The notes below the pieces were generated by a model, which was not told the origin of the DNA, did no database searches, and saw only the letters and a program-made list of their open reading frames with translations. Below are positions 1 to 49,990 of a DNA stretch of 64,000 bases, piece by piece. A program made the translations under genes and the position numbers. Origin of the DNA: Bacteroidales bacterium (GTDB lineage: Bacteria > Bacteroidota > Bacteroidia > Bacteroidales > Muribaculaceae); the NCBI GenBank assembly GCA_014800685.1, contig JAAVFQ010000015.1, positions 15,767-79,766 of the forward strand. The letters run 5' to 3'. Within the stretch, counting starts at the first letter, position 1. Each line of letters starts with the position of its first letter.

Positions 1-1799
1 ACATTCTCATCATCTGTTGAGAGCGCATCTTCAAAAGCTCTGACTGCATTCTCCGGCTCTCCGAGTTTTAGATACACATTTCCGATAGCGGTCTTGAGCC
101 ATACTTCCTGCTCATCAAAGAAGGAGGCCCGGAGATAATAATCCAGAGCTTTTCTATATTCTCCCACATTCTGCAACGCATATCCGGCCTTCTGATAAAT
201 CACATATCCGGCGTCAGGGCCGGCTGCAAGCGACTCAAGATAGGGGAGAGCTATGCTATAGTACCCATTCTTAAAGAAGTACTCACATACCATCTCCTTG
301 AATTCAGAATCAAAAAGAGATTCGGAAAGCACAGGCAATCTGTCAGGAAGCACTGGATTTTTAAAGGGATTACTATAATTTTTATGCGCGTGATATAGAG
401 TGAAAAATCTGTATAAATCTTTTACGAAAGCATGAACTTCTGTAGTGAAGAGCGGGCTATGAGAGCGAAGATCATTTTCCTGCTCTTCACGGTTCATTTT
501 CACCATCTCATCTATCTGAGCCCTCATGCTTCCCATCATTCCCGCAGGAATTGATGAGATGGAGAATGCCATGGAATACTTGTCAGAATCACACAAATAT
601 CTGTTGGCATTCGTTTCAAGCATGGAGTTGATAAAAGACACGTCACCCTTAATTTCACTTCTATCTGCCTCAAACGGCAGGAACCAGTGGCTAATATCTC
701 TGAAGAATGCTCCTGTCTTCATCCTGCTAAAAGTGGCATACATAACGTCTCCACCACTCTCAAGCATTTCTGACATCTCCTGCATCTTCTTGTCAAGCCC
801 CGACTCTGCCATAAACTTTTCCCACTTCGGATTATATCCCAATGACTCCATCGACTCCATAATATCGTCGGGTGACAATCCCGCATCAAGATTCATCTCA
901 TCAAGCATACTCTTGATCTGAGGCTGCATTTTTAGCATGTCGGGAATAACGGTTTTGTTGAGTGTTCGCATTATTCTCGGAGTGTCAAAACCACTGATTA
1001 TGGCCATCTCCACCTCTCTCAGCCTACTGTAATTAACTATAGAATCTTGCCATGCCTCCAGCCTTATCCTGACGCCCTTATCAAAAACAGCTAATTCGCC
1101 ATATTCGCTTAGCGTAAGAATGATGGCCGTAAGAGCGCGGGCAGCGATACTTTCTTCTGTGGTACGCTCATAAATGTCAAGCAAGAGTCTGAACTTCGAC
1201 AGATTAAAATTGCGTAGCAGAGAAAGAAGTAAAGCCCCTATTATTTGATACTTCACGCTTACCGACTCCTCAGTGTCGGTGGATATCTCCATCAGCAAGT
1301 CATGTTCATCACCTGTCAGAGTGGCCACTACGAGTATTGATTCAAAGAGCTCGGAGAGAGTCCGTTCACGTTTCTTCACCAGAGCTTCATCTCTCTCTCC
1401 GCTTTCAATCATTATAGAGTATAGTGAAGCAAATTTTCTATATTCATTTAGAAAATCCGTGACCGTTCTACCCGAAAAATTCACTGTACGAACTATGCCC
1501 GAGAATGTATCGGTGGAATTTTCAGCGAGCATCCTCCTATCTATCGCTCCGATAAGGTCTACAGTCTTGACTGCAAGAGTATTATAAGTATCTTCACGCT
1601 GTGGATCACTAAAGCCATTGCGCAGATAGTCAAGCATATATCCGGAAGTGGATGAAATATTCTCAAATATCCCTTTAAACTCCCTGAGACCATGTTTTTC
1701 TATAAATTCACCTATCGAACGCAAAGCTCTTAGCAAGCCTCCTTGCTTCAATTCCTTAAGCCGGGCAGTTGCCCATTTGGATGAGTATTCTGTTTTCAT
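1..1799 (-). CDS. TPR-repeat protein, 3' end truncated by window edge (absent from ORF track)
   Basis: ATG at 1799 (MKTEYSSKWATARLKELKQGG...). The frame is open where I translated it, at the start and at the window edge (...AVRAFEDALSTDDEN). Helical TPR-like pattern; no stop before the edge. Confidence 0.75.
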   Translation of the reverse strand, partial: MKTEYSSKWATARLKELKQGGLLRALRSIGEFIEKHGLREFKGIFENISSTSGYMLDYLRNGFSDPQREDTYNTLAVKTVDLIGAIDRRMLAENSTDTFSGIVRTVNFSGRTVTDFLNEYRKFASLYSIMIESGERDEALVKKRERTLSELFESILVVATLTGDEHDLLMEISTDTEESVSVKYQIIGALLLSLLRNFNLSKFRLLLDIYERTTEESIAARALTAIILTLSEYGELAVFDKGVRIRLEAWQDSIVNYSRLREVEMAIISGFDTPRIMRTLNKTVIPDMLKMQPQIKSMLDEMNLDAGLSPDDIMESMESLGYNPKWEKFMAESGLDKKMQEMSEMLESGGDVMYATFSRMKTGAFFRDISHWFLPFEADRSEIKGDVSFINSMLETNANRYLCDSDKYSMAFSISSIPAGMMGSMRAQIDEMVKMNREEQENDLRSHSPLFTTEVHAFVKDLYRFFTLYHAHKNYSNPFKNPVLPDRLPVLSESLFDSEFKEMVCEYFFKNGYYSIALPYLESLAAGPDAGYVIYQKAGYALQNVGEYRKALDYYLRASFFDEQEVWLKTAIGNVYLKLGEPENAVRAFEDALSTDDEN

Positions 1800-1950
1800 T
1801 AAATATTAATCTCAATATGCAATCTTTCTTTATATACAGGAGAAAAGGAGCCTTGCAGCCTATATCTTATTCTCCTGCCAACATATACATAACAAAAAAC
1901 ATGCCACTTTTCCTTATTTGAAAAATATTGTCCCACTGCGCCTTCTCCAC

Positions 1951-1981
1951 TTGTGAGATTCTTTATATTTTATTAACTTTG
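1951..1981 (+). promoter_or_regulatory. Bacteroidetes sigma-A type promoter for DUF4293-proS
   Basis: TAACTTTG at 1974-1981 (TAnnTTTG); TTG at 1951-1953, 20 nt upstream. Confidence 0.55.
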
Positions 1982-2033
1982 CAGATTGAAATGCAATACA
2001 CTTTATTGAACCTTTAAAGACAATTATAAGATT

Positions 2034-2501
2034 ATGGTAATTCAGAGATGGCAATCCGTGCTTCTGCTGTGTGCTTGTCTGCTCATGGCAGCTTTCAGTT
2101 TTTGCTCGTTAGGTCAGGTGCAGACCCCGGAGTTTACTCTTAATTTCACCGCTTTAGGACTCTCATACGAAGGAGAACCGACGGGCAATGCTCCCTCAGG
2201 ATATTATCTCACCACGTGGTATTTTTTCGCCGTCTCTCTGCTCTCAGCCATTCTTCCTCTTCTCTCCATATTTTGCTTCAAAAATCTCCCTCTTCAGAAG
2301 AAATTATGTCTTGTAGAAGTTCTCCTCATCATAGCCGTCTGCGCTATTGCAGCCTCTTTAGGCTATAATGTGGAGCAGGGGAATATAGGATGGTCAAGTC
2401 TTATTTGCGCTCCCGTGCTTGCCCTTATTGCTAGTATTATGGCTTATCAGCGCATAAATAAAGACCACAAACTCATTCTCTCTGTCGATCGTTTAAGATA
2501 A
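2034..2501 (+). CDS. DUF4293 family membrane protein
   Basis: MVIQRWQSV start, four hydrophobic segments, C-terminal KDHKLILSVDRLR typical of DUF4293. Confidence 0.8.
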   Translation: MVIQRWQSVLLLCACLLMAAFSFCSLGQVQTPEFTLNFTALGLSYEGEPTGNAPSGYYLTTWYFFAVSLLSAILPLLSIFCFKNLPLQKKLCLVEVLLIIAVCAIAASLGYNVEQGNIGWSSLICAPVLALIASIMAYQRINKDHKLILSVDRLR

Positions 2502-2505
2502 CTCC

Positions 2506-2540
2506 TGCACACCCCTTTCTCAGTGAAGAACGGGTGTGCA
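2506..2540 (+). other. Intergenic stem-loop without U-tract
   Basis: TGCACACCC (2506-2514) / GGGTGTGCA (2532-2540) with inner TTCT/AGAA pairing. Confidence 0.55.
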
Positions 2541-2581
2541 CCAACAAGTAAAAATCATCGTTACATCAAAGTGCGTTTACA

Positions 2582-4063
2582 ATGGCAAAAGAACTAAAGA
2601 ATTTTACAAAACGCTCAGATAACTACTCTCAATGGTATAATGAACTCGTCCTCAAAGCTGACCTCGCAGAGCAGTCGGCAGTAAGAGGTTGTATGGTGAT
2701 AAAGCCTTATGGCTATGCCATTTGGGAAAAAATGCAGGCCGAACTTGACAGAATGTTTAAAGAGACAGGCCACCAGAATGCCTATTTCCCTCTCCTCATC
2801 CCCAAATCATTCATGAGCAGGGAGGCTGACCATGTAGAAGGGTTTGCAAAAGAATGTGCCGTAGTCACTCATTACAGACTGAAAAATGACCCCGATGGCA
2901 ATGGAGTCGTCGTTGACCCCGCGGCTCGACTCGAAGAAGAATATATCATCCGCCCCACGTCTGAGACGATAATATGGAATACTTACCGCAACTGGATTAA
3001 CTCATATAGAGACCTTCCCATACTTGTCAATCAGTGGGCCAACGTGTTCCGCTGGGAGATGAGAACGAGAATGTTTCTCCGCACAGCCGAGTTCCTTTGG
3101 CAAGAGGGTCATACGGCTCACGCCACAAAGGAAGAGGCGGAAGAGGAGGCTCACAGAATGCTTGAAGTGTATGCCGACTTTGCTGAAAACTTCATGGCTG
3201 TGCCTGTCGTTAAGGGCGTGAAGTCGCCCAATGAAAGATTTGCAGGCGCTCTTGACACCTTTACGATTGAAGCCATGATGCAAGACGGAAAAGCTCTTCA
3301 GTCGGGCACTTCACATTTCCTCGGTCAGAACTTCGCCAAGGCTTTCGACGTGACGTTCATGAATAAAGACAACAAGCAGGAATATGTATGGGCAACCTCC
3401 TGGGGAGTTTCCACCCGCCTGATGGGTGCCTTGATCATGACCCATAGTGACGACAATGGCCTTGTGCTCCCTCCCCGTCTGGCTCCGATTCAGGTTGTGA
3501 TTGTGCCTATTTTCAAGGATTCGGAGGGTCTTGAGGCTATCAGAAACAGAATGGAGCCCATCATGGCCGAACTTCGTAAACGTGGCATACGCGTGAAATT
3601 TGATGATGCTGACAATAAGCGTCCCGGCTTCAAGTTTGCCGATTATGAAGTGAAGGGAGTGCCCGTCCGTCTCGCCGTAGGCGCAAGAGACCTTGAAAAC
3701 GGCACTATCGAACTCATGCGCCGCGATACTCTTGAGAAGAGAGTCGTGAATCTTGAAGGTATCGAGAATCTCATTTCTGATGAGTTAGAAGACATTCAGA
3801 AGAGTCTCTTCGAGCGTGCCCTTAAATTCCGCGAAGACCACACTATCACGGTGGACAGCTATGATGAATTTAAGGAGAAAATAGAAGAGGGTGGTTTCAT
3901 TCTCGCTCACTGGGACGGAACCCCTGAGACTGAAGAAAAGATTAAAGAGGAAACAAAAGCTACCATACGCTGTATCCCTCTTGAGGGTGATAAGACCCCC
4001 GGAAAATGTATGGTGACCGGCAAGCCTTCAGCTCAGAGAGTGGTCTTTGCGCGTTCCTATTAA
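2582..4063 (+). CDS. proS: Proline--tRNA ligase (eukaryote/archaeal-like type)
   Basis: [31 protein letters not shown] motifs; C-terminal TIRCIP domain. Confidence 0.97.
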
Positions 4064-4074
4064 TTAATGAACAA

Positions 4075-4116
4075 TGGAGGGCGTGTCAAAATGCAAAATT
4101 TTTGACACGCCCTCCA
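4075..4116. repeat. 17-bp perfect inverted repeat (REP-like hairpin) after proS
   Basis: TGGAGGGCGTGTCAAAA (4075-4091) / TTTTGACACGCCCTCCA (4100-4116), 8-nt loop. Confidence 0.9.
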
Positions 4117-4136
4117 AGAGTATATTTTTAAATGAT

Positions 4137-4210
4137 TTCGGCGCGGAGCATAGGAGAATATAAACGTATTCGACAGAGCGACAAGCCGGAAGCGACAAAA
4201 AGAAGCCGAA
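4137..4210 (+). ncRNA. Candidate structured intergenic element, copy A
   Basis: Outer stem TTCGGC/GCCGAA and inner hairpin GAATA/TATTC; core 4152-4184 matches 49188-49220 at 23/33 ungapped positions. Confidence 0.5.
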
Positions 4211-4312
4211 GATAGTATAAAAGATTTCTAAACTCATATTATTGTTTAACTTTGAATACTGACTTAACCTTATAATCAATACTATCTTACACGACGGAAA
4301 AAACTATCTGAC

Positions 4313-6493
4313 ATGAAAAAATACCTAATCGGCTCAGCACTGATGTGCGTTGCACTCGGCAGTGGAGTCGCCAATGGTCAGCTCACCATAAAGGACTATT
4401 GCGACATAAAAACAGCTGCCCCGACAATGATAAAAGAAATGAGACCTCTTGCTGACGGCGTGAGCTATGCATGCATATCAGACGATGGCAAACGGATAGA
4501 AGTCTTCAACTATAAAACAGGGAAAAAGGTATCCACACTTTTTGATGTGGATGCAATTAAAGGAGACGTAAAGATATCTGAATTTGACGGTTATGCACTT
4601 AGCTCCAATGAGAAGAAAATTCTTTTATGGAACGAGAAGCAAAAGATATATCGCTACAGCTACAAAGCTGAATATTATGTCTACGACATAGCCAGAGGCA
4701 GCATGAAGCGAGTATCTGAGAATGGCAAGCAGCAGAGCGCCACTCTGTCTCACGATGGCAGAATGGTGGCATATCAGAGAGATAATAACATCTATATCTC
4801 TAATCTGGACTATGACACAGACAAGCCGATAACCACTGATGGTAAAATCAACGAAATCATCTATGGCACCACAGACTGGGGATATGAGGAGGAGTTCGGA
4901 ATGCTTAACACCATGATGTGGTCAGCTGATGACAATGTGCTCTCCTTTATGCGCTTTGATGAAAGCAAAGTGCCCACTTATAGTTTTGACAATTATTTGA
5001 GCTACTGCGATTCCGAGCCATTGTCAGACCCATATCCCAACACCTTCAGCTATAAATATCCCCTTGCCGGATATAATAATTCCGTCGTCTCTGTGCACTC
5101 TTACGACCTTAACACAAGGGTGACCAAGACTATGGATCTTCCGATTGGAGAAAAGGACTATGTTCCATGTCTCTCCCTTGATGGCAAAGAGCAGAACCTG
5201 ATGGTGATGATAGTAAATCGTGATCAGAATGAACTAAAGCTCTTCAGCGTAAATCCGGGGTCGACAGTTGCACGCCAGATTTATTCGGAAAAAAGTAATG
5301 CATGGCTTTCGCCAACGGCATATCAGATGGTGAAATATTTTGACACTCACTTCGTAATTGCCAGCGATAAATCCGGCTACCGTCATCTCTATAAATATGA
5401 CTATAACGGCAATCTCATAAAGCAGTTGTCATCAGGAGATTTCAATATTACAGCTTATTACGGCACCGACAAGTCCGGCAACTCCTTCGTTCAGACCACA
5501 AGTCTCGGAGCAATCAATAGAAATGTAGCCCGAATCTCCCCCTCAGGTCAGCTTACGCTTCTTCATAATATGGAAGGCACCGAACGAGCATCTTTCTCTC
5601 CGACATTTGACTATTATGTCAGGACGTATAGCTCAGCCAACGTGCCTCCCCAGTTTAGCGTTTGGAGCACAAAAGGCACTAAGATAGCTGACCTCGAAAA
5701 CAATGAAGCTTACGCGGCAAAATATGCCAATGCACCCAAAACGGAATTTCTGAAGGTGAAAAATGCCGTAGGGGAGGAGATGAATGCCTTTATGATCAAA
5801 CCGGCTGACTTCGATGCCTCTAAGAAATATCCTATTCTTATGTATCAGTACAACGGACCGGAATCTCAGCTTGTCACCAACAGCTGGAAAATGGAGGGAG
5901 TCTATTACATTGCCTCGCGTGGCTACATCGTGGCCTGTGTAGATGGCCGTGGCACCGGCAATCGTAGTCGCAGCTGGTCAGACGGAGTCTATAAGCAACT
6001 TGGCAAACTTGAGACTCAAGACCAGATAGCAGGCGCGAAATACTTTGCTACACTTCCTTACATAGACTCATCCCGCATGGCTTGCTTCGGCTGGAGCTAT
6101 GGAGGTTATATGACTCTTATGGAGCTCACTGAGCCGGGGTCTCCTTTCAAAGCAGGCATTTCCATGGCTCCCGTGACAGATTGGAGATGGTATGATTCCA
6201 TCTATACCGAACGCTATATGACCACTCCACAGCAGAATGAGAGTGGATATGACATCTCATCAGCGATGAATCGTACAGAGAATCTTAACGGCCGACTTCT
6301 GATTATGAGTGGAACCAGCGATGACAATGTCCACTATTACAATACTTTGAAATACACGTCAAAAATTGGATCAGAAGGTAAAGTCTTTGATATGATGTCA
6401 TTCACGGGATTTGAACATAGCCTTCCCATGTGTAATGCACGCGAACAGCTTTTCCGTAAAGTAGTAGATTTTCTTGATACTAACATTAAGTAA
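4313..6493 (+). CDS. Dipeptidyl-peptidase IV (S9B), signal peptide
   Basis: DWGYEEE propeller motif, GWSYGG nucleophile, DDNVH, FEH catalytic His. Confidence 0.93.
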   Translation: MKKYLIGSALMCVALGSGVANGQLTIKDYCDIKTAAPTMIKEMRPLADGVSYACISDDGKRIEVFNYKTGKKVSTLFDVDAIKGDVKISEFDGYALSSNEKKILLWNEKQKIYRYSYKAEYYVYDIARGSMKRVSENGKQQSATLSHDGRMVAYQRDNNIYISNLDYDTDKPITTDGKINEIIYGTTDWGYEEEFGMLNTMMWSADDNVLSFMRFDESKVPTYSFDNYLSYCDSEPLSDPYPNTFSYKYPLAGYNNSVVSVHSYDLNTRVTKTMDLPIGEKDYVPCLSLDGKEQNLMVMIVNRDQNELKLFSVNPGSTVARQIYSEKSNAWLSPTAYQMVKYFDTHFVIASDKSGYRHLYKYDYNGNLIKQLSSGDFNITAYYGTDKSGNSFVQTTSLGAINRNVARISPSGQLTLLHNMEGTERASFSPTFDYYVRTYSSANVPPQFSVWSTKGTKIADLENNEAYAAKYANAPKTEFLKVKNAVGEEMNAFMIKPADFDASKKYPILMYQYNGPESQLVTNSWKMEGVYYIASRGYIVACVDGRGTGNRSRSWSDGVYKQLGKLETQDQIAGAKYFATLPYIDSSRMACFGWSYGGYMTLMELTEPGSPFKAGISMAPVTDWRWYDSIYTERYMTTPQQNESGYDISSAMNRTENLNGRLLIMSGTSDDNVHYYNTLKYTSKIGSEGKVFDMMSFTGFEHSLPMCNAREQLFRKVVDFLDTNIK

Positions 6494-6520
6494 GATAGAA
6501 GATTACCAATAAAATACTAT

Positions 6521-6573
6521 TTCCCGTCAGGCGATTCCACAAACAAGAGGATGACCCTGACGGGAATTTTTTT
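6521..6573 (+). terminator. Rho-independent terminator
   Basis: TTCCCGTCAGG / CCTGACGGGAA followed by T7. Confidence 0.8.
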
Positions 6574-6715
6574 ATAATATTTCGTAATTTTTCATATCCG
6601 ATTTTAATTGAGCATTGTTATAAATGTACAGGGATGCGTAAACAACCCAAAGCAGTACCCTTTTTAACCTATCTGATACTACCGGACGGCGTTATAGTCT
6701 TCCGGACTATTCGTT

Positions 6716-8071
6716 ATGGAACAATTAAAGAAAGTTAATAGTTTCCAATTATACCTATTCTGGAAGAATTTCTCTATAGGGATTCTCGTAATGGTAGCAG
6801 TGGTGGTCATCTGCCGCATGCTACCGTACTATCTTGCACCGGTCATCTCTCTTCTTGGCGTAGCATTTTTATACACGATGCTCTTTAACAATAAGTCAAA
6901 CAATGAGTTCTCGTGCATGATAGGCCCATACGCCATTTTTGTTTGTCTGATTACATACAGTTTCGTTTCCATTGTCTTCAATATGCTCTTCGCCTGGAAA
7001 CTAATGAGCATCCCGAAGGAGTTCGTATTCTTCACCGACCCCTATATTCCGGCGCTCTTTATGATTCCGAGCAGCTTTGTGACAATGATATTTGTCTATA
7101 TCTTCAGGAATAATCTTTCGATATGCAAGGAATGTAATCTGAAGTTCGGAGGAATACATGAAAGGGGAAAATTTGGTAGAATCATCAACTATGAGAGCAA
7201 ATTTCAGCTTGCCAATCTGCTGCTTGTCTTCGGAGTGCTTTCAGCCATAATATGGTCATATTATCTGGGGTTCTATAAAAATATTAATCAGAATGCGCGC
7301 GACTGGTATGTCTTCACATGGCTTGTGGTAATCACCCTTGTGCTCGATGAGCTATATTTCGCAATGCGATATTATAATCTTTATCTGGATCTTAAGGAGA
7401 ATGATGAGCTTCTCACTCCTGAAGATCTGATGAACATGACCTCAAAGATTTACCTTCGCTTCTATGTAGTATGCGGCAATAACATCTACATGAATGTTCA
7501 TGAGATAGATCCCAAAACTCACTTGCGTGAAATTATCGACACACCCTTCATGACCAAACGCAGCATTACCGGCATTACGATAGATGAAGTCAAGAATATA
7601 ATAGTCAGAATGACAGGGGTGGATAATGGAGAACTTCGATTCTTCTTCGGACGTAAGGGATCGGCCTCTGAAAAGCAATCTATCCTTCGCTATTTCTATT
7701 TTCTTGACGGAAAGATAGAAGACTATCCTTCACTGAAGACGCCCGGAGAATGGCTTGACTTCAATCAACTCAAAAAGATATATTCCGCAAGCCCCGGATT
7801 GCTTTCAGACATGACAGTAGCAGACACCAATCGCTTGGCAACTATTATCATAACCGAAAAACTCTTCAATGATAAGGGCTTTAGGAAATCAAAAATAAAG
7901 TCATACGTACCCACTTTTTCGCTCGAAGAAGTCAGAGACTCCGTGCTTGACTTTCAAGATGATAAGTGGATAAAAATCTCTTCATTCAATTCAGACAGAC
8001 GCTTTTTCAGGCTTAGAACATGGTGGAGAAAACTTATGAGGGGCTCAAGAAAGAAAGCGACATGGATGTAG
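6716..8071 (+). CDS. Multi-pass membrane protein with soluble C-terminal domain, function unknown
   Basis: About six hydrophobic segments in the first ~220 aa, then a soluble domain; overlaps miaA. Confidence 0.7.
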   Translation: MEQLKKVNSFQLYLFWKNFSIGILVMVAVVVICRMLPYYLAPVISLLGVAFLYTMLFNNKSNNEFSCMIGPYAIFVCLITYSFVSIVFNMLFAWKLMSIPKEFVFFTDPYIPALFMIPSSFVTMIFVYIFRNNLSICKECNLKFGGIHERGKFGRIINYESKFQLANLLLVFGVLSAIIWSYYLGFYKNINQNARDWYVFTWLVVITLVLDELYFAMRYYNLYLDLKENDELLTPEDLMNMTSKIYLRFYVVCGNNIYMNVHEIDPKTHLREIIDTPFMTKRSITGITIDEVKNIIVRMTGVDNGELRFFFGRKGSASEKQSILRYFYFLDGKIEDYPSLKTPGEWLDFNQLKKIYSASPGLLSDMTVADTNRLATIIITEKLFNDKGFRKSKIKSYVPTFSLEEVRDSVLDFQDDKWIKISSFNSDRRFFRLRTWWRKLMRGSRKKATWM

Positions 8072-10883: not shown

Positions 10884-11128
10884 TATACATAAGTAAGTAT
10901 TCAAATTTAACGGGTAATATAACTTTAGAGATTTCACGAGATAAGGAGTAAGAAGCTCAATTAATTGCCGGAGTGAGAGTCTCTCTTCATTTCTTATAGC
11001 GGCTCTTGCATATATGTTTCTTCACTCCTTGACTTCGATAAGAATTGTCTTTATTTGCAGGCAGAGAAGTAAGTTCGAAAAATTTCACTTACTTAAAAAA
11101 TACTCATTTACTTGAAACAGATTCCATA

Positions 11129-13849: not shown

Positions 13850-14006
13850 AGTAAAAAGGGGCAGATGTCAGCACGGCAGATAAGTTTTAACATTTGTTAT
13901 GAATTGATATCTAAACTATTTAAAGCTAATCTTGTCTTACTTATGTAAGATCTCCATAAAAAAGAGAAATACAAAAAATAATTCACAGACGAAAAAAGCT
14001 GTAGCT

Positions 14007-15212
14007 ATGAAAAGAAAATTATTACTTATGTCAATCCTGCTTGCCGGAACGCTGTATTCATTCGGGCAGGACTATGACGATGATATATATTACAATCCTA
14101 AGAAGGATAAGACGGAAAAGAAATCATCCGATTATAATAGAAAGAAAAAGGGAAGCTCGTATATAGCTAATTTTGAGGACATGGACGTGGACACTTATAA
14201 TCGGCGCGGCCAGTATTATCTCTCACCTGTAGACACCATTGGAGCGGCTGCAGAGAATGGAGAAGATTTTGTCTATACGCAGCAGATCCAGAAATATTAT
14301 AATCCTACTATTGTCATAGACAATGCTGATATTCTGGCCGATGTCCTTGAAAACTCATACGGCAATGTCAACATCGAAGTAGACATGAATGGCATGCCTT
14401 ATTTCGGCCCATATTATAATAACTGGACTTACGCTTCACCCTATTATTCCGCATATTGGGGGCCTTCATGGTCATGGAACTGGGGCTTCGGCAACTGGGG
14501 CTGGAGCATCGGTTGGAGCAATCCCTGGTATTGGGATGCATGGGGCCCGGCATGGGGATGGGGACCCTCATACGGTTGGACTTGGGGATCCGGATGGTAT
14601 CCCGGTTGGAATTGGGGCTGGAACGGATATAATCAGCATTGGGTAGCTAATCACTACCGTCCTGGAGGAAACCGCAGAGTAGGAGCCGGCTCAAATTGGG
14701 CTTATAATACTCGCCCCGGCACAGTAATTAATGGCAATCACAATACTCGCCCCTACAGAGGCATCCAGACTTCTACCGGCGGATATAATGTCTCCGGAAA
14801 TCATCGTACCGGCGGAGTGGCCACTTATAACAGAAATAGCGGAAGCACCCATCGCAATAGCTCTACGCTTGGCACTTTCAATAACAGAAACATCGGCACC
14901 ATCGGCACAGGCAATAATCGTGGAGGCTATCGTCAGGGGACATCCGGCGGCAACTCAAGAACCGGCTCTACCGGCGGATTCAACAGAAATTCCAATTATA
15001 ATTCTACCCGAAACAGCGGAAATAACCGAACCACAAATTCCGGAAATTCAAGCTATCGGAGCACATATAATTCCGGCTCTAACTCCGGCAGAAGCAGCGG
15101 TGGCTATTACAATACCGGAGGCAACCACAGGTCCGGGGGCTCAGGCAGCTTTGGCGGTGGCAGCCGCGGCGGATTCGGAGGAGGAGGCGGTCGCTCCGGT
15201 GGTCACAGATAA
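14007..15212 (+). CDS. Secreted low-complexity protein (Trp/Gly-rich block, Asn/Gly/Arg/Ser-rich tail)
   Basis: Signal peptide MKRKLLLMSILLAGTLYSFG, YDDDIYY motif, WG-rich core, GR-rich C-terminus; likely start 14007. Confidence 0.8.
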   Translation: MKRKLLLMSILLAGTLYSFGQDYDDDIYYNPKKDKTEKKSSDYNRKKKGSSYIANFEDMDVDTYNRRGQYYLSPVDTIGAAAENGEDFVYTQQIQKYYNPTIVIDNADILADVLENSYGNVNIEVDMNGMPYFGPYYNNWTYASPYYSAYWGPSWSWNWGFGNWGWSIGWSNPWYWDAWGPAWGWGPSYGWTWGSGWYPGWNWGWNGYNQHWVANHYRPGGNRRVGAGSNWAYNTRPGTVINGNHNTRPYRGIQTSTGGYNVSGNHRTGGVATYNRNSGSTHRNSSTLGTFNNRNIGTIGTGNNRGGYRQGTSGGNSRTGSTGGFNRNSNYNSTRNSGNNRTTNSGNSSYRSTYNSGSNSGRSSGGYYNTGGNHRSGGSGSFGGGSRGGFGGGGGRSGGHR

Positions 15213-15266: not shown

Positions 15267-15580
15267 CGCTCGCGGACTCTATTTGGCTCAAATCCAAGCA
15301 TGCTCAAAAATCAGAACACCAAAAAAGTGATGCTTAGAATGAACAAAGCGGAGCAAAAGAAATTATAATATTATATCGGTAAGTTAGTTTAGAGAATTTA
15401 ATAATATATGTGAGATGAAAACTCGTGTACTATAAAACTTGTCATCTTGCTGATTTCTCAGTGGCACTCAGATAGATATACATAAATCTTCGTTCGGCTC
15501 TCTGAGAAATTAACAGTAAAACAACTTCGTTCTATATGTGCACTACACCTTCTCCCTTACATACAATATAGACTATATCT

Positions 15581-17191
15581 ATGAAAAGACTTTTACTTTA
15601 CAGCACACTGCTCGGTCTTCCGGGAATAGCCTTTGCACAAAGTGCATTTGAAGGTGCCACGATTGCACAGAATGATTTAAAGGGTACAGCAAGATTTATG
15701 TCGATGGGTGGCTCATTCGGCGCACTTGGCGCAGACCTAAGCACTCTATCTCAAAATCCCGGAGGTATCGGCGTCTACCGTAATTCCGAACTTGGCTTCA
15801 CCCTTGATCTGGATATGCAGAATGCAAACGCCAAAAGCATGGGAAGCAATATGAGTCAGGATCAGACAAAATTCCTTCTAAATAACATAGGAGGTGTGGC
15901 CACGTTCCGTCTGAATTCTTCCGCAGTGCCAAATATCAACATAGGTTTTACTTACAACAAGGCTGCCTCATTCAACCGCGCATTCAGAGGCTCTATCCCG
16001 ACGCTGCATAATTCGATGAGCAATTATATAGCCGGCGTGACCAATAACGACGGCGCGAGCGTGGATATGCTGCAGTCGAACAATATTTACGGGTCGGCCT
16101 ACACTGGAAATGCCCAATGGATTTCTATCCTGGGATATGACAGCTTTCTTATCACGCCCATAGGAAATGAGAATTCTCCGACATGGGTAGGCCAGTGGGA
16201 CGATGGCACATCAGGCTCCGGACAATTTGCTTCAGTAGAGAAAGGGAGCATTGACGAATATAACATTGCCTTCGGTGGTAATATTAATAATATCGTCTAT
16301 TGGGGTATGGATTTCGGTATTATTGATTTCAATTACACAGCGGAAACCCGCTGGGCCGAGTCTCTTGACAATGCGTGGGTAGCAAATCCGAATAACGAAA
16401 TAGTCAAAACAAAAGCCAACTGGAATCTCTATAACTACTATAACCTTCAGGGGTCGGGATTTAACTATAAGCTTGGCTTCATAGTTAAACCGATTCAGGA
16501 ACTTCGTCTGGGATTTGCATTCCACACTCCGACATGGTATTCGTTTGATCAGTACTACTACGCGGCAGTGAATTATGATTATAATAATGGGATTAATTCC
16601 GGTTATGCCGAGACCAACGATGGATATGACGGATACAGCTCATTTAATTTCCGCACGCCATGGCATCTGATTTTCTCCGCCGCCGGTGTGATAGGCAATA
16701 ATCTGATAGTATCAGCCAACTATGAATGGGAGCCTACTCATGCCATCCATTTCTCTGACACATATTCCTACGGCAATGAACTTCAGGATTCTTACTACTT
16801 GACGAATGAGGATGCAAAGAACTATTTCAAAAGCACCAATATCATAAGCCTCGGTGCGGAATATAGGATCACTCCACAATTCAGCGTACGCGCCGGATAT
16901 AGATACGTAACATCACCGACAAAGAGTGAAATCGCGGACAATCAGCTGGATGTTTATACAGCCGGGACCCGTCCTCAATATGTGCTTTCGGATGCTACCA
17001 ATTACGTGACTTGCGGTCTTGGCTATAAGTATAAGCATTTCTATGCTGATCTGGCTTACGTCTACAAGCATCGAAAAGGCTCCTTCCATGCCTATACTCC
17101 GGACCCCAGCACTCCCAACATACCATCACCACAAGCTGACGTCGCCTTTAATAATAATCAGCTTGTACTCTCAATGGGCTTCAAGTTTTAA
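15581..17191 (+). CDS. OmpP1/FadL-like outer-membrane beta-barrel transporter
   Basis: Signal peptide, GTARFMSMGGSFGALGAD and NPGGIG FadL-type N-terminal motifs, C-terminal Phe (GFKF). Confidence 0.85.
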   Translation: MKRLLLYSTLLGLPGIAFAQSAFEGATIAQNDLKGTARFMSMGGSFGALGADLSTLSQNPGGIGVYRNSELGFTLDLDMQNANAKSMGSNMSQDQTKFLLNNIGGVATFRLNSSAVPNINIGFTYNKAASFNRAFRGSIPTLHNSMSNYIAGVTNNDGASVDMLQSNNIYGSAYTGNAQWISILGYDSFLITPIGNENSPTWVGQWDDGTSGSGQFASVEKGSIDEYNIAFGGNINNIVYWGMDFGIIDFNYTAETRWAESLDNAWVANPNNEIVKTKANWNLYNYYNLQGSGFNYKLGFIVKPIQELRLGFAFHTPTWYSFDQYYYAAVNYDYNNGINSGYAETNDGYDGYSSFNFRTPWHLIFSAAGVIGNNLIVSANYEWEPTHAIHFSDTYSYGNELQDSYYLTNEDAKNYFKSTNIISLGAEYRITPQFSVRAGYRYVTSPTKSEIADNQLDVYTAGTRPQYVLSDATNYVTCGLGYKYKHFYADLAYVYKHRKGSFHAYTPDPSTPNIPSPQADVAFNNNQLVLSMGFKF

Positions 17192-49086: not shown

Positions 49087-49238
49087 AAAGTGCCCCCCGA
49101 ATATGAAGGGCACTTTGTAAGTAAGTGAGAAAAATTAATGTACATATAAAACGAAGTGATTTTGGATATAATTTCGCGGCGAAACGAAGGGAGATATAAG
49201 CATATCTGACTGAGAGTCAACGCAAAATGAGTCCAAAA
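49087..49238 (+). ncRNA. Candidate structured intergenic element, copy B (with preceding hairpin)
   Basis: AAAGTGCCC/GGGCACTTT hairpin; outer stem TTTTGGA/TCCAAAA; AGATAT/ATATCT and GAC/GTC hairpins; core homologous to 4152-4184. Confidence 0.5.
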
Positions 49239-49324
49239 GGGCAAGTTTTATTGTACAAGAGTTTTCATCTCACATATATCGTTTAATTTTTCGAACTTAC
49301 TTAATTATTTTATGAAGGAAATTT

Positions 49325-49990
49325 TTAATGGAGCCAATAGAGTATAGAGGCAGACACGCACCTCTGCTTGCCATTTCCATAATAGGATGCGTTGGCCAGA
49401 CCCAAATCATATTCCACCTTTAAGCCAAGGTGTCGCCATTTCGCATTAATGGCGAATGACAGACCGCCATCCGCTCTGTTACACGGGCGATAGGATGGTC
49501 TGTAGGAATATGAATTACTCTTATCATTCCCGAAAGTGCTGACTCTGACGTCGTATGGCTGATTAAAAGCATCTATGCCTCTTACAAACGAATCCCCATT
49601 CACACCAACGGCAAAATATGCCCCAAGCTCCGGTTTGAGAGTAAAGCCATTTCCTAAATCGAATTTGTAGCCTGCCATGACCGGTATCTGCAAATAATCC
49701 ATCTCTGAAAATTTAACAGAGCTAATCGTTGTATTCATGAGAGTCTCGCCCTTTATCGTGGCTCCTTTCCGGATATAGAATAGTCCGGACTCAAAGCTAA
49801 GATTATTCCGGAGGGTAAACTCTGCGTCGGCTCCAACCTTAAACCCATTTCTTGATTTGGCACTTCCATCACTGACAGAGAGTGTGCTATTTACATATCC
49901 TGCTTCTATGCCGAAGTTCCAGCTTTGAGCATTAGCAGAGAAGGCAGCTGCCATCAAAAGAAATGATGATAAAATCTTAATACATTTCAT
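49325..49990 (-). CDS. Outer-membrane beta-barrel (porin family) protein
   Basis: Signal peptide ending ANA, amphipathic strands, YLQIPVMAGYKF, aromatic C-terminus. Confidence 0.8.
   Translation of the reverse strand: MKCIKILSSFLLMAAAFSANAQSWNFGIEAGYVNSTLSVSDGSAKSRNGFKVGADAEFTLRNNLSFESGLFYIRKGATIKGETLMNTTISSVKFSEMDYLQIPVMAGYKFDLGNGFTLKPELGAYFAVGVNGDSFVRGIDAFNQPYDVRVSTFGNDKSNSYSYRPSYRPCNRADGGLSFAINAKWRHLGLKVEYDLGLANASYYGNGKQRCVSASILYWLH

What the first reader, a model, noticed from the sequence alone, without database searches (positions are those of the whole stretch)
4137..4210. Dispersed structured element with compensatory base changes (copy A; partner at 49160-49238)
Seen: AGGAGAATATAAACGTATTCGACAGAGCGACAA (4152-4184) aligns without gaps to AGGGAGATATAAGCATATCTGACTGAGAGTCAA (49188-49220) at 23/33 positions. 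Four of the ten differences are two compensatory swaps in one hairpin (G-C to A-U, A-U to G-C), and another turns U-G into U-A. Both copies sit inside an outer stem and follow a strong separate hairpin by about 20-45 nt. Copy A is sense to its neighbours and copy B antisense. Inference: a conserved ncRNA or ssDNA-structured REP/MITE-like family selected for structure.
Basis: partly seen in the sequence, partly recalled or inferred. Interest (0 to 1): 0.62.

Follow-up and report, generated by a model that had tools for sequence, protein, structure and literature searches.

The report
Miniature transposon copies with structured core
The two similar hairpins are the cores of small non-coding transposons (MITEs), derived from the long palindromic ends of an IS5-family insertion sequence of Muribaculaceae gut bacteria: a real, structured repeat family, but an ordinary kind of mobile DNA rather than a new RNA gene.

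Summary
Copies A and B align over about 145 nt, not 33. A third copy lies at 15380-15559 on the minus strand.

Each is a roughly 180-bp imperfect palindrome with terminal inverted repeats (TA|AGTAAGTG...ACTTACT|TA) flanked by TA. B and C are complete. A has lost its 5' end.

The host is an uncultured Muribaculaceae. A covariance model finds 36 related "rods" in about 1.4 Mb of related genomes. All 29 copies checked for context are intergenic, in every orientation relative to their neighbours. Several are precisely absent from the same site in sister species.

Intact IS5-family insertion sequences (254-aa DDE transposase) carry the same rod just inside both ends. The window copies are therefore MITE or solo-end derivatives. 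No transposase lies in the window.

The rod shows strong compensatory variation, a mostly G-U closing pair, and a conserved apex: GAAGGAG, a 6-bp hairpin, then GACUGA, giving two tandem G-A loops. This argues for selection on a folded single strand. Its role is inferred only.

There is no Rfam match. RNA data are uninformative.

Verdict: new member of a known kind, modest interest.

The parts
49118..49303 (+). MITE copy B, complete. Element 49120-49301 (AGTAAGTG...AACTTACT), flanked by TA at 49118-49119 and 49302-49303.
   Evidence: Inverted termini match at 18/20. The whole 190 nt folds as one rod at -55 kcal/mol, z -6.4. The family HMM covers positions 1-186, E 1.4e-46.
49152..49248 (+).
   Evidence: Covariance model R1, 82.2 bits, E 1.4e-16.
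49192..49207 (+). Apical 6-bp hairpin of B (AGAUAU-AAGC-AUAUCU), between GAAGGG and GACUGA.
4123..4266 (+). MITE copy A, truncated at its 5' end (family HMM positions 41-186 only). The 3' terminus ...ACTGACT ends at 4264, followed by TA at 4265-4266. The 5' break abuts the ProRS terminator (4075-4118).
   Evidence: nhmmer E 1e-19. Present in all 9 strain-level loci.
4116..4212 (+).
   Evidence: R1, 64.1 bits, E 5.7e-12. Fold.
4156..4171 (+). Apical hairpin of A (GAAUAU-AAAC-GUAUUC). Its flanking motifs are degenerate in this strain: AUAGGAG and GACAGA, where other strains have GAAGGAG and GACUGA.
4247..4254 (+). TAACTTTG inside the 3' inverted repeat of copy A, 59 nt before the DPP-IV start codon (4313). 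It matches the Bacteroidetes -7 promoter box TAnnTTTG (consensus recalled from memory). It may serve as the promoter of the downstream gene; this is inference.
   Evidence: The same position is TAAATTTG in L055, which also precedes a gene.
15380..15559 (-). MITE copy C, complete. Element 15557 down to 15382, flanked by TA at 15559-15558 and 15381-15380. It ends 22 nt before the ATG (15581) of the FadL-like gene on the other strand.
   Evidence: nhmmer E 7e-37. Sequence. Fold.
15433..15529 (-). Rod core of copy C, with a degenerate apex (GAACGAAG ... AUCUGA, and a mismatch in the hairpin).
   Evidence: R1, 58.3 bits, E 1.7e-10.
10888..11097 (.). Possible relative D. A TA-flanked pair of inverted termini TAAGTAAGT lies 190 bp apart. 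The interior has no rod and no other copy in the data held.
   Evidence: Status uncertain.

Best explanation
The finding is the central hairpin ('rod') of a family of non-autonomous miniature transposons (MITEs) in an uncultured Muribaculaceae genome.

Shown:
- Each complete copy is a roughly 180-bp imperfect palindrome. It ends in inverted repeats (AGTAAGTG...) and is flanked by a duplicated TA.
- The copies lie only between genes, in any orientation. Some are present and some absent at the same site in related species.
- The same rod lies just inside both ends of intact 1.2-1.3-kb IS5-family insertion sequences. These encode a 254-aa DDE transposase (DUF4096 plus DDE_Tnp_1).

Inferred:
- The window copies arose from one palindromic IS end, which carries the terminus and an inverted copy of it.
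- They are, or were, moved by cut-and-paste by such a transposase supplied in trans.
- They now decay in place: A is truncated and mutated in the apex, and C has a degenerate apex.

Inferred, with less confidence:
- The rod is kept by selection acting on the element, as a folded single strand.
- It most likely folds in RNA made by transcription running into the IS from outside. Both ends present the same strand to inward transcription. There it could block, terminate or mark read-through for cleavage, shielding the transposase gene.
- Alternatively, it is a structure that the transposase or a host factor recognises.
For: - Extent and third copy.
- Organism.
- Termini and TA flanks.
- Precise filled and empty sites: L038 has GTCA-TA-[element]-TA-ATTC where L037 has GTCA-TA-ATTC. 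Also L064 (two sites) against L062, L023 against L018, and L018 against L023.
- 29 copies in 1.37 Mb, all intergenic, in all four orientation classes.
- DNA metagenomes show 40- to 900-fold excess depth over the element.
- L052 14510-15558 is a decayed IS with a rod at each end and a DDE_Tnp_1 fragment between them.
- Intact transposases of 254 aa match NF033580 at 168.8 bits. They have rod(+) upstream and rod(-) downstream in L096-L100, L103, L107-L109 and L187-L190. Direct TAA or TTA repeats flank 5 of 7 copies.
- Structure: 87.6% of cells pair, against 60% in shuffles and 39-47% when partners are slid. 289 cells change on both sides, against 100 in shuffles.
- AAGGAG/GACUGA alternates with AGGGAG/GACCGA. 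The closing pair is G-U in 21 of 36 copies. G-U+U-G total 76 against 32 for A-C+C-A.
- Within one IS, the terminal 37 nt of the two ends are 31-36/37 identical. The rods are only 58-67/98 identical, yet both fold at -49 to -68 kcal/mol.
- Decay of A's apex relative to other strains.
Against: - No autonomous element with the window's own terminus type (AGTAAGTG) was found. All intact IS copies carry TAAGACCCC-type ends, so trans-mobilisation of the window subfamily is unproven.
- No empty site was seen for A, B or C themselves. Only near-identical strains were available.
- In an ordinary MITE the termini are the best-conserved part. Here it is the central apex.
- The flanking repeats differ between subfamilies (TA against TAA/TTA), and 2 of 7 IS copies lack a direct repeat.
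- The proposed role of the rod rests on structure and polarity alone. There is no strand-specific RNA evidence.
Confidence: 0.85

Rival explanations
1. The copies began as MITEs but the host now uses them. The long hairpin, transcribed as part of neighbouring mRNAs, would act as a stabiliser, an RNase site, a terminator or a promoter donor, as reported for Correia and ERIC elements.
For: - B lies between the OMP gene's stop codon (49325) and its terminator (49115-49091 on the minus strand), so it is part of that 3' UTR.
- C ends 22 nt before the FadL-like ATG.
- A supplies TAACTTTG 59 nt before the DPP-IV ATG.
- A is fixed in 9 of 9 strain loci.
- The reverse strand of B also folds, z -4.0.
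Against: - B and C would be transcribed in the antisense orientation of the conserved motif.
- The apex is mutated in A and C, and A is truncated.
- Copies in other species sit in all orientations.
- No expression data exist.
Confidence: 0.15
2. The copies are a family of independent small-RNA genes. Each would have its own promoter and make a rod-shaped RNA of about 100-150 nt that acts in trans.
For: - RNA-like covariation, a conserved G-U pair and tandem G-A loops.
- Five copies, including B and C, have both neighbours on the opposite strand. The sense strand there could be made only from an own promoter.
- Contigs of RNA runs cover the rods of a relative.
Against: - No conserved promoter box or terminator was seen by eye. 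The flanks that looked promoter-like are the inverted termini.
- Rods sit at both ends of transposase genes.
- Insertion polymorphism is precise to the termini.
- The depth excess in RNA runs is smaller than in DNA runs, so it reflects repeat collapse.
- No Rfam match.
Confidence: 0.06
3. The copies are REP or REPIN elements, moved as folded single-stranded DNA by a RAYT (Y1 HUH) transposase.
For: Intergenic palindromes in many copies, with strand-asymmetric pairing.
Against: - The size is about 180 bp, not 20-40 bp units.
- There are target duplications.
- There is no GTAG-type head.
- The associated enzyme is a DDE transposase.
- RAYT genes were not searched for.
Confidence: 0.03
4. The similarity between two AT-rich intergenic hairpins is due to chance.
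For: 23/33 alone occurs for 3.4% of random 33-mers of this window.
Against: - The alignment score of 35 is far outside the shuffles.
- There is a third copy at E 1e-14.
- 36 model hits reach E 1e-18.
Confidence: 0.01

Closest known systems
IS5-family insertion sequences (NCBIfam NF033580, 'transpos_IS5_3'; Pfam DUF4096 + DDE_Tnp_1)
   Same: The rod lies inside both ends of intact elements of this family. These have a DDE transposase of 254 aa, inverted termini of about 37 nt, and 2-3-bp A/T target duplications. That duplication size is the one I recall for some IS5 subgroups (memory of ISfinder). It is documented for the related eukaryotic PIF/Harbinger-ISL2EU group (PMC12730594).
   Different: The window copies encode nothing and have a different terminus subtype. 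75 more distant IS5-family relatives from metagenomes (44% identity or less to P0001) have no rod. The rod is therefore a feature of one clade.
Correia elements (CREE/NEMIS) of Neisseria
   Same: Intergenic MITEs of about 104-157 bp, whose mobility was inferred from strain comparisons. They carry promoters and a host-factor (IHF) site (review PMC3184786). From memory: they have a TA target duplication, and their long inverted repeats fold in RNA and are cut by RNase III.
   Different: The sequence and the host are unrelated. No parent IS is known for Correia elements, whereas a parent-type IS was found here. The best-conserved part here is the apex of the hairpin.
ERIC/IRU and related enterobacterial MITEs
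   Same: Imperfect palindromes of about 127 bp in intergenic, often transcribed, DNA. They have inverted termini and 5'-TA-3' on both flanks (PMC3184786).
   Different: The sequence and the lineage are unrelated. They have no known transposase partner.
Tourist-type MITEs of plants (PIF/Harbinger superfamily)
   Same: Non-autonomous derivatives of transposons whose DDE transposase is related to the IS5 family. They have TA or TAA/TTA target duplications (PMC12730594; the Tourist detail is from memory).
   Different: They are eukaryotic and have no conserved structured core.
Solo stem-loops derived from IS200/IS605 ends in Borrelia
   Same: End structures of an IS found apart from any transposase gene. 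One shows base-pair compensatory changes at the RNA level (described in PMC3184786).
   Different: The IS family and the chemistry differ: single-strand Y1 transposition with no target duplication.
REP/REPIN-RAYT systems
   Same: Abundant intergenic palindromes, with pairs forming long hairpins.
   Different: See the membership test: the size, the target duplication and the DDE partner do not fit.

Membership tests
MITE (miniature inverted-repeat transposable element) | Short (tens to a few hundred bp) and non-coding | tested here: met
   Elements are 166-199 bp. B is 182 bp, C is 176 bp and A is about 142 bp, truncated. All 29 copies checked lie outside ORFs of 110 aa or more.
MITE (miniature inverted-repeat transposable element) | Terminal inverted repeats | tested here: met
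   B matches at 18/20, L081 at 20/20, L055 at 19/20 and L038 at 18/20. C's termini were read by eye. A has kept only the 3' terminus.
MITE (miniature inverted-repeat transposable element) | Target-site duplication | tested here: met
   TA lies on both flanks of B, C, L055, L081 and L038. The empty site in L037 has a single TA where L038 has TA-element-TA. Less clean in L064 against L062.
MITE (miniature inverted-repeat transposable element) | Many dispersed copies, with presence or absence differing between related genomes | tested here: met
   29 copies in 1.37 Mb. Depth excess is 40- to 900-fold in DNA metagenomes. At least five filled/empty pairs. Not shown for A, B or C themselves, because only near-identical strains were available.
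MITE (miniature inverted-repeat transposable element) | A related autonomous element with matching ends | tested here: inconclusive
   The rod and the general end architecture are shared with intact IS5-family elements. All of those have TAAGACCCC-type termini. None with AGTAAGTG termini was found, and there is no transposase in the window.
IS5 family insertion sequence (autonomous) | Encodes a DDE transposase of the family | tested here: not met
   There is no tblastn match of P0001, P0008, P0025, P0048 or P0112 in the window. The window copies are non-autonomous derivatives, not IS elements.
REP/REPIN-RAYT | GC-rich imperfect palindromes of 20-40 nt with a conserved head, no target duplication, and an associated Y1 (RAYT) transposase | tested here: not met
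   The palindromes are about 180 bp and AT-rich (GC 0.36-0.42). They have TA duplications. The partner is a DDE enzyme. RAYT genes were not searched for.
Any described RNA family (Rfam 15) | A match at or near the family's gathering score | tested here: not met
   No match at gathering score in the window or in 7 related loci. In E-value mode, nothing came near its family's gathering score (best match 20.9 bits against a cut-off of 80; E 0.13 or higher).
Independent sRNA gene | Own promoter and terminator, and a discrete transcript | not testable with these tools
   No RNA run exists for this species. For a relative, only undirected contigs exist, and their depth is explained by repeat collapse. 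Promoter boxes were inspected by eye only.

The most novel reading that the evidence does not exclude
The rod may be more than a by-product of palindromic ends. It could be a functional structured nucleic-acid module acquired by one clade of IS5-family elements. It would be an RNA (or a folded non-transferred DNA strand) with two tandem G-A loops and a conserved G-U pair. It would control the element, for example as an insulator against incoming transcription, a nuclease target or a transposase-binding scaffold. Its MITE derivatives would then have seeded hundreds of copies of this module between Muribaculaceae genes, where some may now shape host gene expression.
Probability: 0.25. Interest if true: 0.55.

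Novelty: new member of a known kind. Interest (0 to 1): 0.3.

Why it matters
Muribaculaceae are dominant gut bacteria of rodents, are also common in other animals, and remain poorly annotated. I found no paper or Rfam family that describes this repeat family.

Knowing that these roughly 180-bp palindromes are MITEs has practical uses:
- It stops them being annotated as sRNA genes.
- It explains assembly breaks and depth spikes in gut metagenomes.
- It gives markers for strain typing.
- It points to places where an insertion may have altered a 3' UTR (OMP gene), a 5' region (FadL-like gene) or a promoter (DPP-IV).

The one feature beyond routine is that structure is selected at each IS end separately. 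The two rods of one element share only about 60-68% of positions, yet both fold. The apex motif is conserved. This is a tractable case for asking what subterminal hairpins do for a DDE transposon.

Tried and rejected
1. A strict degenerate pattern from the three window copies found nothing in genome contigs. It was too strict: even strains of the same species break it. That cost one of the two scans.

2. Synteny comparison through the uridine-kinase locus did not work. The 80 related loci do not share the ProRS/DPP-IV or FadL neighbourhoods. They did, however, supply 1.3 Mb in which family members were found.

3. Rfam gave nothing, in gathering and in E-value mode.

4. RNA evidence was uninformative. 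There is no RNA run for the species. For a relative, the high contig depth over the rods in RNA runs looked like an abundant sRNA. DNA runs then showed a still larger excess. I rejected it as repeat collapse.

5. I first read the conserved 3' flank (TTAATTTT-N5-ACTTACTTA) as an outward promoter, and the 5' flank as the element's own promoter. Both are the inverted termini and outer arms of the palindrome.

6. CUGAUGAG...GAAA strings in some copies recalled a hammerhead core. The spacing does not allow stem II, most copies lack the string, and no Rfam ribozyme model matches.

7. Exact-protein look-ups for the neighbours of B and C returned only near-identical strains, so no empty site for the window copies was obtained.

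8. A search for long inverted TAAG-type termini enclosing a gene gave one true case (L052) and several chance pairs around housekeeping genes.

9. Look-ups of further transposase homologues (P0045, P0048, P0069, P0112) did not yield a parent with AGTAAGTG ends.

10. Element D has no relatives beyond its 10-nt termini.

Full report
**1. The observation**

Their 6-bp hairpins differ by two double (compensatory) changes and one U-G to U-A change. The 74- and 79-nt segments fold better than all 200 shuffles, with z -2.9 and -3.6.

Taken alone, 23/33 is not remarkable. 3.4% of random 33-mers of this window find such a partner.

The similarity is much longer than reported, however. The two intergenic regions align over about 145 nt, A 4124-4268 with B 49161-49305, both on the + strand. 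The score is 35, against 12.4 +/- 1.7 (maximum 20) in 500 shuffles. nhmmer gives E 5e-6 for A against B.

nhmmer also finds a third copy, C, at 15377-15512 on the minus strand, at E 1e-14 to B. The '23/33 chance match' of B that I had seen near 15493 was this copy.

**2. Anatomy in the window**

An HMM of full-length relatives covers B over 49118-49303 and C over 15380-15560. In A it covers only model positions 41-186, at 4123-4266.

B and C are complete elements.
- B reads TA|AGTAAGTGAGAAAAATTAATG...CGTTTAATTTTTCGAACTTACT|TA.
- The whole 190 nt of B fold into one rod at -55 kcal/mol, z -6.4.
- C has the same layout on the other strand.
- A has lost about 40 nt at its 5' end, exactly where the ProRS terminator (4075-4118) abuts.

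What I first took for a promoter-like conserved 3' flank (TTAATTTT-N5-ACTTACTTA) is the 3' inverted terminus.

One (4075-4118) follows the ProRS gene. The other (49091-49115) reads on the minus strand as stem plus UUUUAUU and ends the OMP gene (49325-49990).

B therefore sits between that gene's stop codon and its terminator. C sits between the terminator of the gene 13932-15212 and the ATG of the FadL-like gene at 15581, 22 nt from it.

A fourth TA-flanked pair of TAAGTAAGT termini encloses 190 bp without a rod, at 10888-11097. Its status is uncertain.

**3. Organism and family size**

The ProRS protein is identical in a MAG (GCA_014800765.1) and in several gut metagenome assemblies. The closest uridine-kinase loci, as far as their record titles name a family or genus, are Muribaculaceae or genera placed in it (some carry older labels).

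Iterated nhmmer found copies in other species. I then built a covariance model from 16 copies. It finds 29 distinct copies in 1.37 Mb, and 36 once IS-borne rods are added.

The opposite strand scores far lower, for example 85.5 against 33.9 bits.

All 29 copies lie between ORFs. The four possible orientation classes relative to the neighbours are all populated, at about 11, 6, 5 and 5 of the 27 copies with a called ORF on both sides (ORF calls are crude).

I laid two DNA metagenome runs on a relative's locus. Depth over the element is 350-6800, against 7-19 on the flanks. The family is therefore highly repeated in mouse-gut communities.

**4. Mobility**

Flank comparison among the 80 loci gives precise filled and empty pairs.
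- The cleanest is L038, GTCA-TA-[AGTAAGT...ACTTACT]-TA-ATTC, against L037, GTCA-TA-ATTC. Their flanks are 92-97% identical.
- L064 carries two copies that L062, L056 and L067 lack.
- L023 and L018 each carry an insertion that the other lacks.
- L078 has, at the place of L069's element, a 44-nt palindrome made only of the two termini.

TA flanks both ends of B, C, L055, L081 and L038.

**5. The parent element**

Some loci have two rods facing each other (L018, L041, L050). In L052 the pair encloses 785 bp with a frameshifted DDE_Tnp_1 fragment.

A read-through of that fragment finds 1395 homologues. The closest are 254-aa proteins with DUF4096 and DDE_Tnp_1. They match NCBIfam NF033580, 'IS5 family transposase', at 168.8 bits against a cut-off of 110.

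Their contigs show a constant architecture:
- a terminus of about 37 nt (TAAGACCCC..AAAATGTTAACGCAGGGG);
- rod(+);
- 120-180 nt;
- the transposase gene;
- about 100 nt;
- rod(-);
- the other terminus.

Direct TAA or TTA repeats flank 5 of 7 copies.

Among 80 IS5-family relatives from metagenomes, only the closest five carry rods: L107-L109 at both ends, L147 at the one end the contig holds. In L110 one of the two rods is a MITE lying next to a cut IS copy. The 75 more distant ones (44% identity or less to P0001) carry none.

The window has no transposase homologue. No intact IS with the window's terminus type (AGTAAGTG) was found. This is the main gap.

**6. Is the structure selected?**

Yes.
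- On a MAFFT alignment of 16 copies, with a structure taken from the single-sequence folds, 81.8% of cells pair. Shuffles give 60%, and partners slid by 1-3 columns give 37-48%. 25 of 29 pairs change on both sides.
- On 36 model-aligned copies, 87.6% of cells pair. 289 cells change on both sides, against 100 in shuffles. The covariation score is 0.70 against 0.21. This alignment leans towards the model.

The apex is the best-conserved part: GA-AG-GA-[6 bp, usually GCAUAG CGGG CUAUGY]-GA-CU-GA. That is two 2x2 loops of tandem G-A, separated by two Watson-Crick pairs.
- AAGGAG/GACUGA alternates with AGGGAG/GACCGA, as 23 A-U against 11 G-C.
- The pair closing the apical helix is G-U in 21 of 36 copies. 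On the other strand that would be an A-C mismatch.
- Overall, G-U+U-G outnumber A-C+C-A by 76 to 32. In the apical helix the count is 26 to 2.

The most telling result concerns the two ends of a single IS. The terminal 37 nt are 31-36/37 identical. The adjoining rods are only 58-67/98 identical. Yet each rod folds end to end at -49 to -68 kcal/mol.

The fold of one particular strand is therefore what is kept. That strand reads inward from each terminus.

**7. What the rod does (inference)**

Because both ends present the same strand to transcription entering the IS, I favour an RNA-level role against read-through from host promoters. Many insertion sequences are known to guard against this (general knowledge, not tested here).

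A role as a recognition structure for the transposase or a host factor is the alternative. This would parallel the IHF site in Correia elements (PMC3184786).

Selection seems to act on the element rather than on the host.
- The window's copy A reads AUAGGAG...GACAGA, where other strains of the same species still read GAAGGAG...GACUGA.
- C's apex is degenerate, and A is truncated.
- B and C can be transcribed with their neighbours only in the antisense orientation.

**8. RNA data**

There is no RNA run for this species. For the relative L018, contigs of four RNA runs cover both rods at depth 13-160, against 0-9 on the flanks. The excess is larger still in DNA runs, so it reflects collapsed repeats. 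Contigs carry no strand. The data are uninformative.

**9. Comparison with known families, and novelty**

The element works like Correia, ERIC and Tourist-type MITEs. It is tied to the IS5 family. It meets the MITE criteria, except that a parent with identical termini was not found.

It is not a REP/REPIN and matches no Rfam family. I found no paper that describes it. A bulk MITE census of Bacteroidota exists (PMC11602168) but does not single it out.

I file it as a new member of a known kind. The separately maintained, motif-bearing hairpin at each IS end is the only aspect that may repay experiment.

Noticed in passing
window 4091-4098 (loop of the hairpin 4075-4118): The loop of the ProRS terminator is TGCAAAAT in the window and four strain loci. 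It is the exact reverse complement, ATTTTGCA, in four others. This is a loop-inversion polymorphism within one species.
   Followed up: no
window 10888-11097: A TA-flanked pair of inverted TAAGTAAGT termini, identical to the MITE ends, lies 190 bp apart. The interior has no rod and no other copy in about 1.6 Mb of data held. It may be a cargo-swapped or decayed relative, or chance.
   Followed up: partly
window 49091-49325 (minus strand): MITE B lies between the stop codon of the OMP beta-barrel gene (49325) and that gene's intrinsic terminator (49115-49091). The mRNA should therefore carry a 180-nt hairpin in its 3' UTR.
   Followed up: no
window 15559-15581: MITE C ends 22 nt before the ATG of the FadL/TodX-like gene. 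That gene's promoter must lie within or beyond the insertion.
   Followed up: no
window 4247-4254; L055 about 13440: In A and in L055 the 3' terminus reads TAACTTTG or TAAATTTG, a perfect Bacteroidetes -7 box. Both copies have a co-directional gene close downstream. Most other copies, including some that also precede a gene (L068, L038), read TAATTTT[TC]. This may be exaptation as a promoter.
   Followed up: partly
L018 13336-13671; L041 18683-19022; L050 17287-17651: Two IS ends (terminus plus rod) face each other across 75-100 nt of unique AT-rich DNA, with no transposase. These are 336-365-bp 'two-rod' non-autonomous elements. In L023 the whole L018 pair is absent from the same site.
   Followed up: partly
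L097 1600-1860: An intact IS has inserted at a TAA inside the 3' arm of a window-type MITE, giving a nested insertion.
   Followed up: no
L078 about 690-735, against L069 7380-8350: L078 has a 44-nt palindrome made only of the two MITE termini. At the same place L069 has a full MITE, a HigA-like antitoxin gene and a further terminus fragment.
   Followed up: no
IS copies L097-L100, L107-L109, L187, just inside each rod: GGTAAYTT(T) follows the rod at both ends, reading inward. It resembles a -7 box (TAACTTTn). Alternatively, it is the partner of the GTTAAC in the terminus.
   Followed up: no
L038, L064, L014, L065 and other rods: Some copies carry CUGAUGAG...GAAA on the 3' arm, which recalls the hammerhead core. 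The spacing does not fit, and no Rfam ribozyme model matches.
   Followed up: partly
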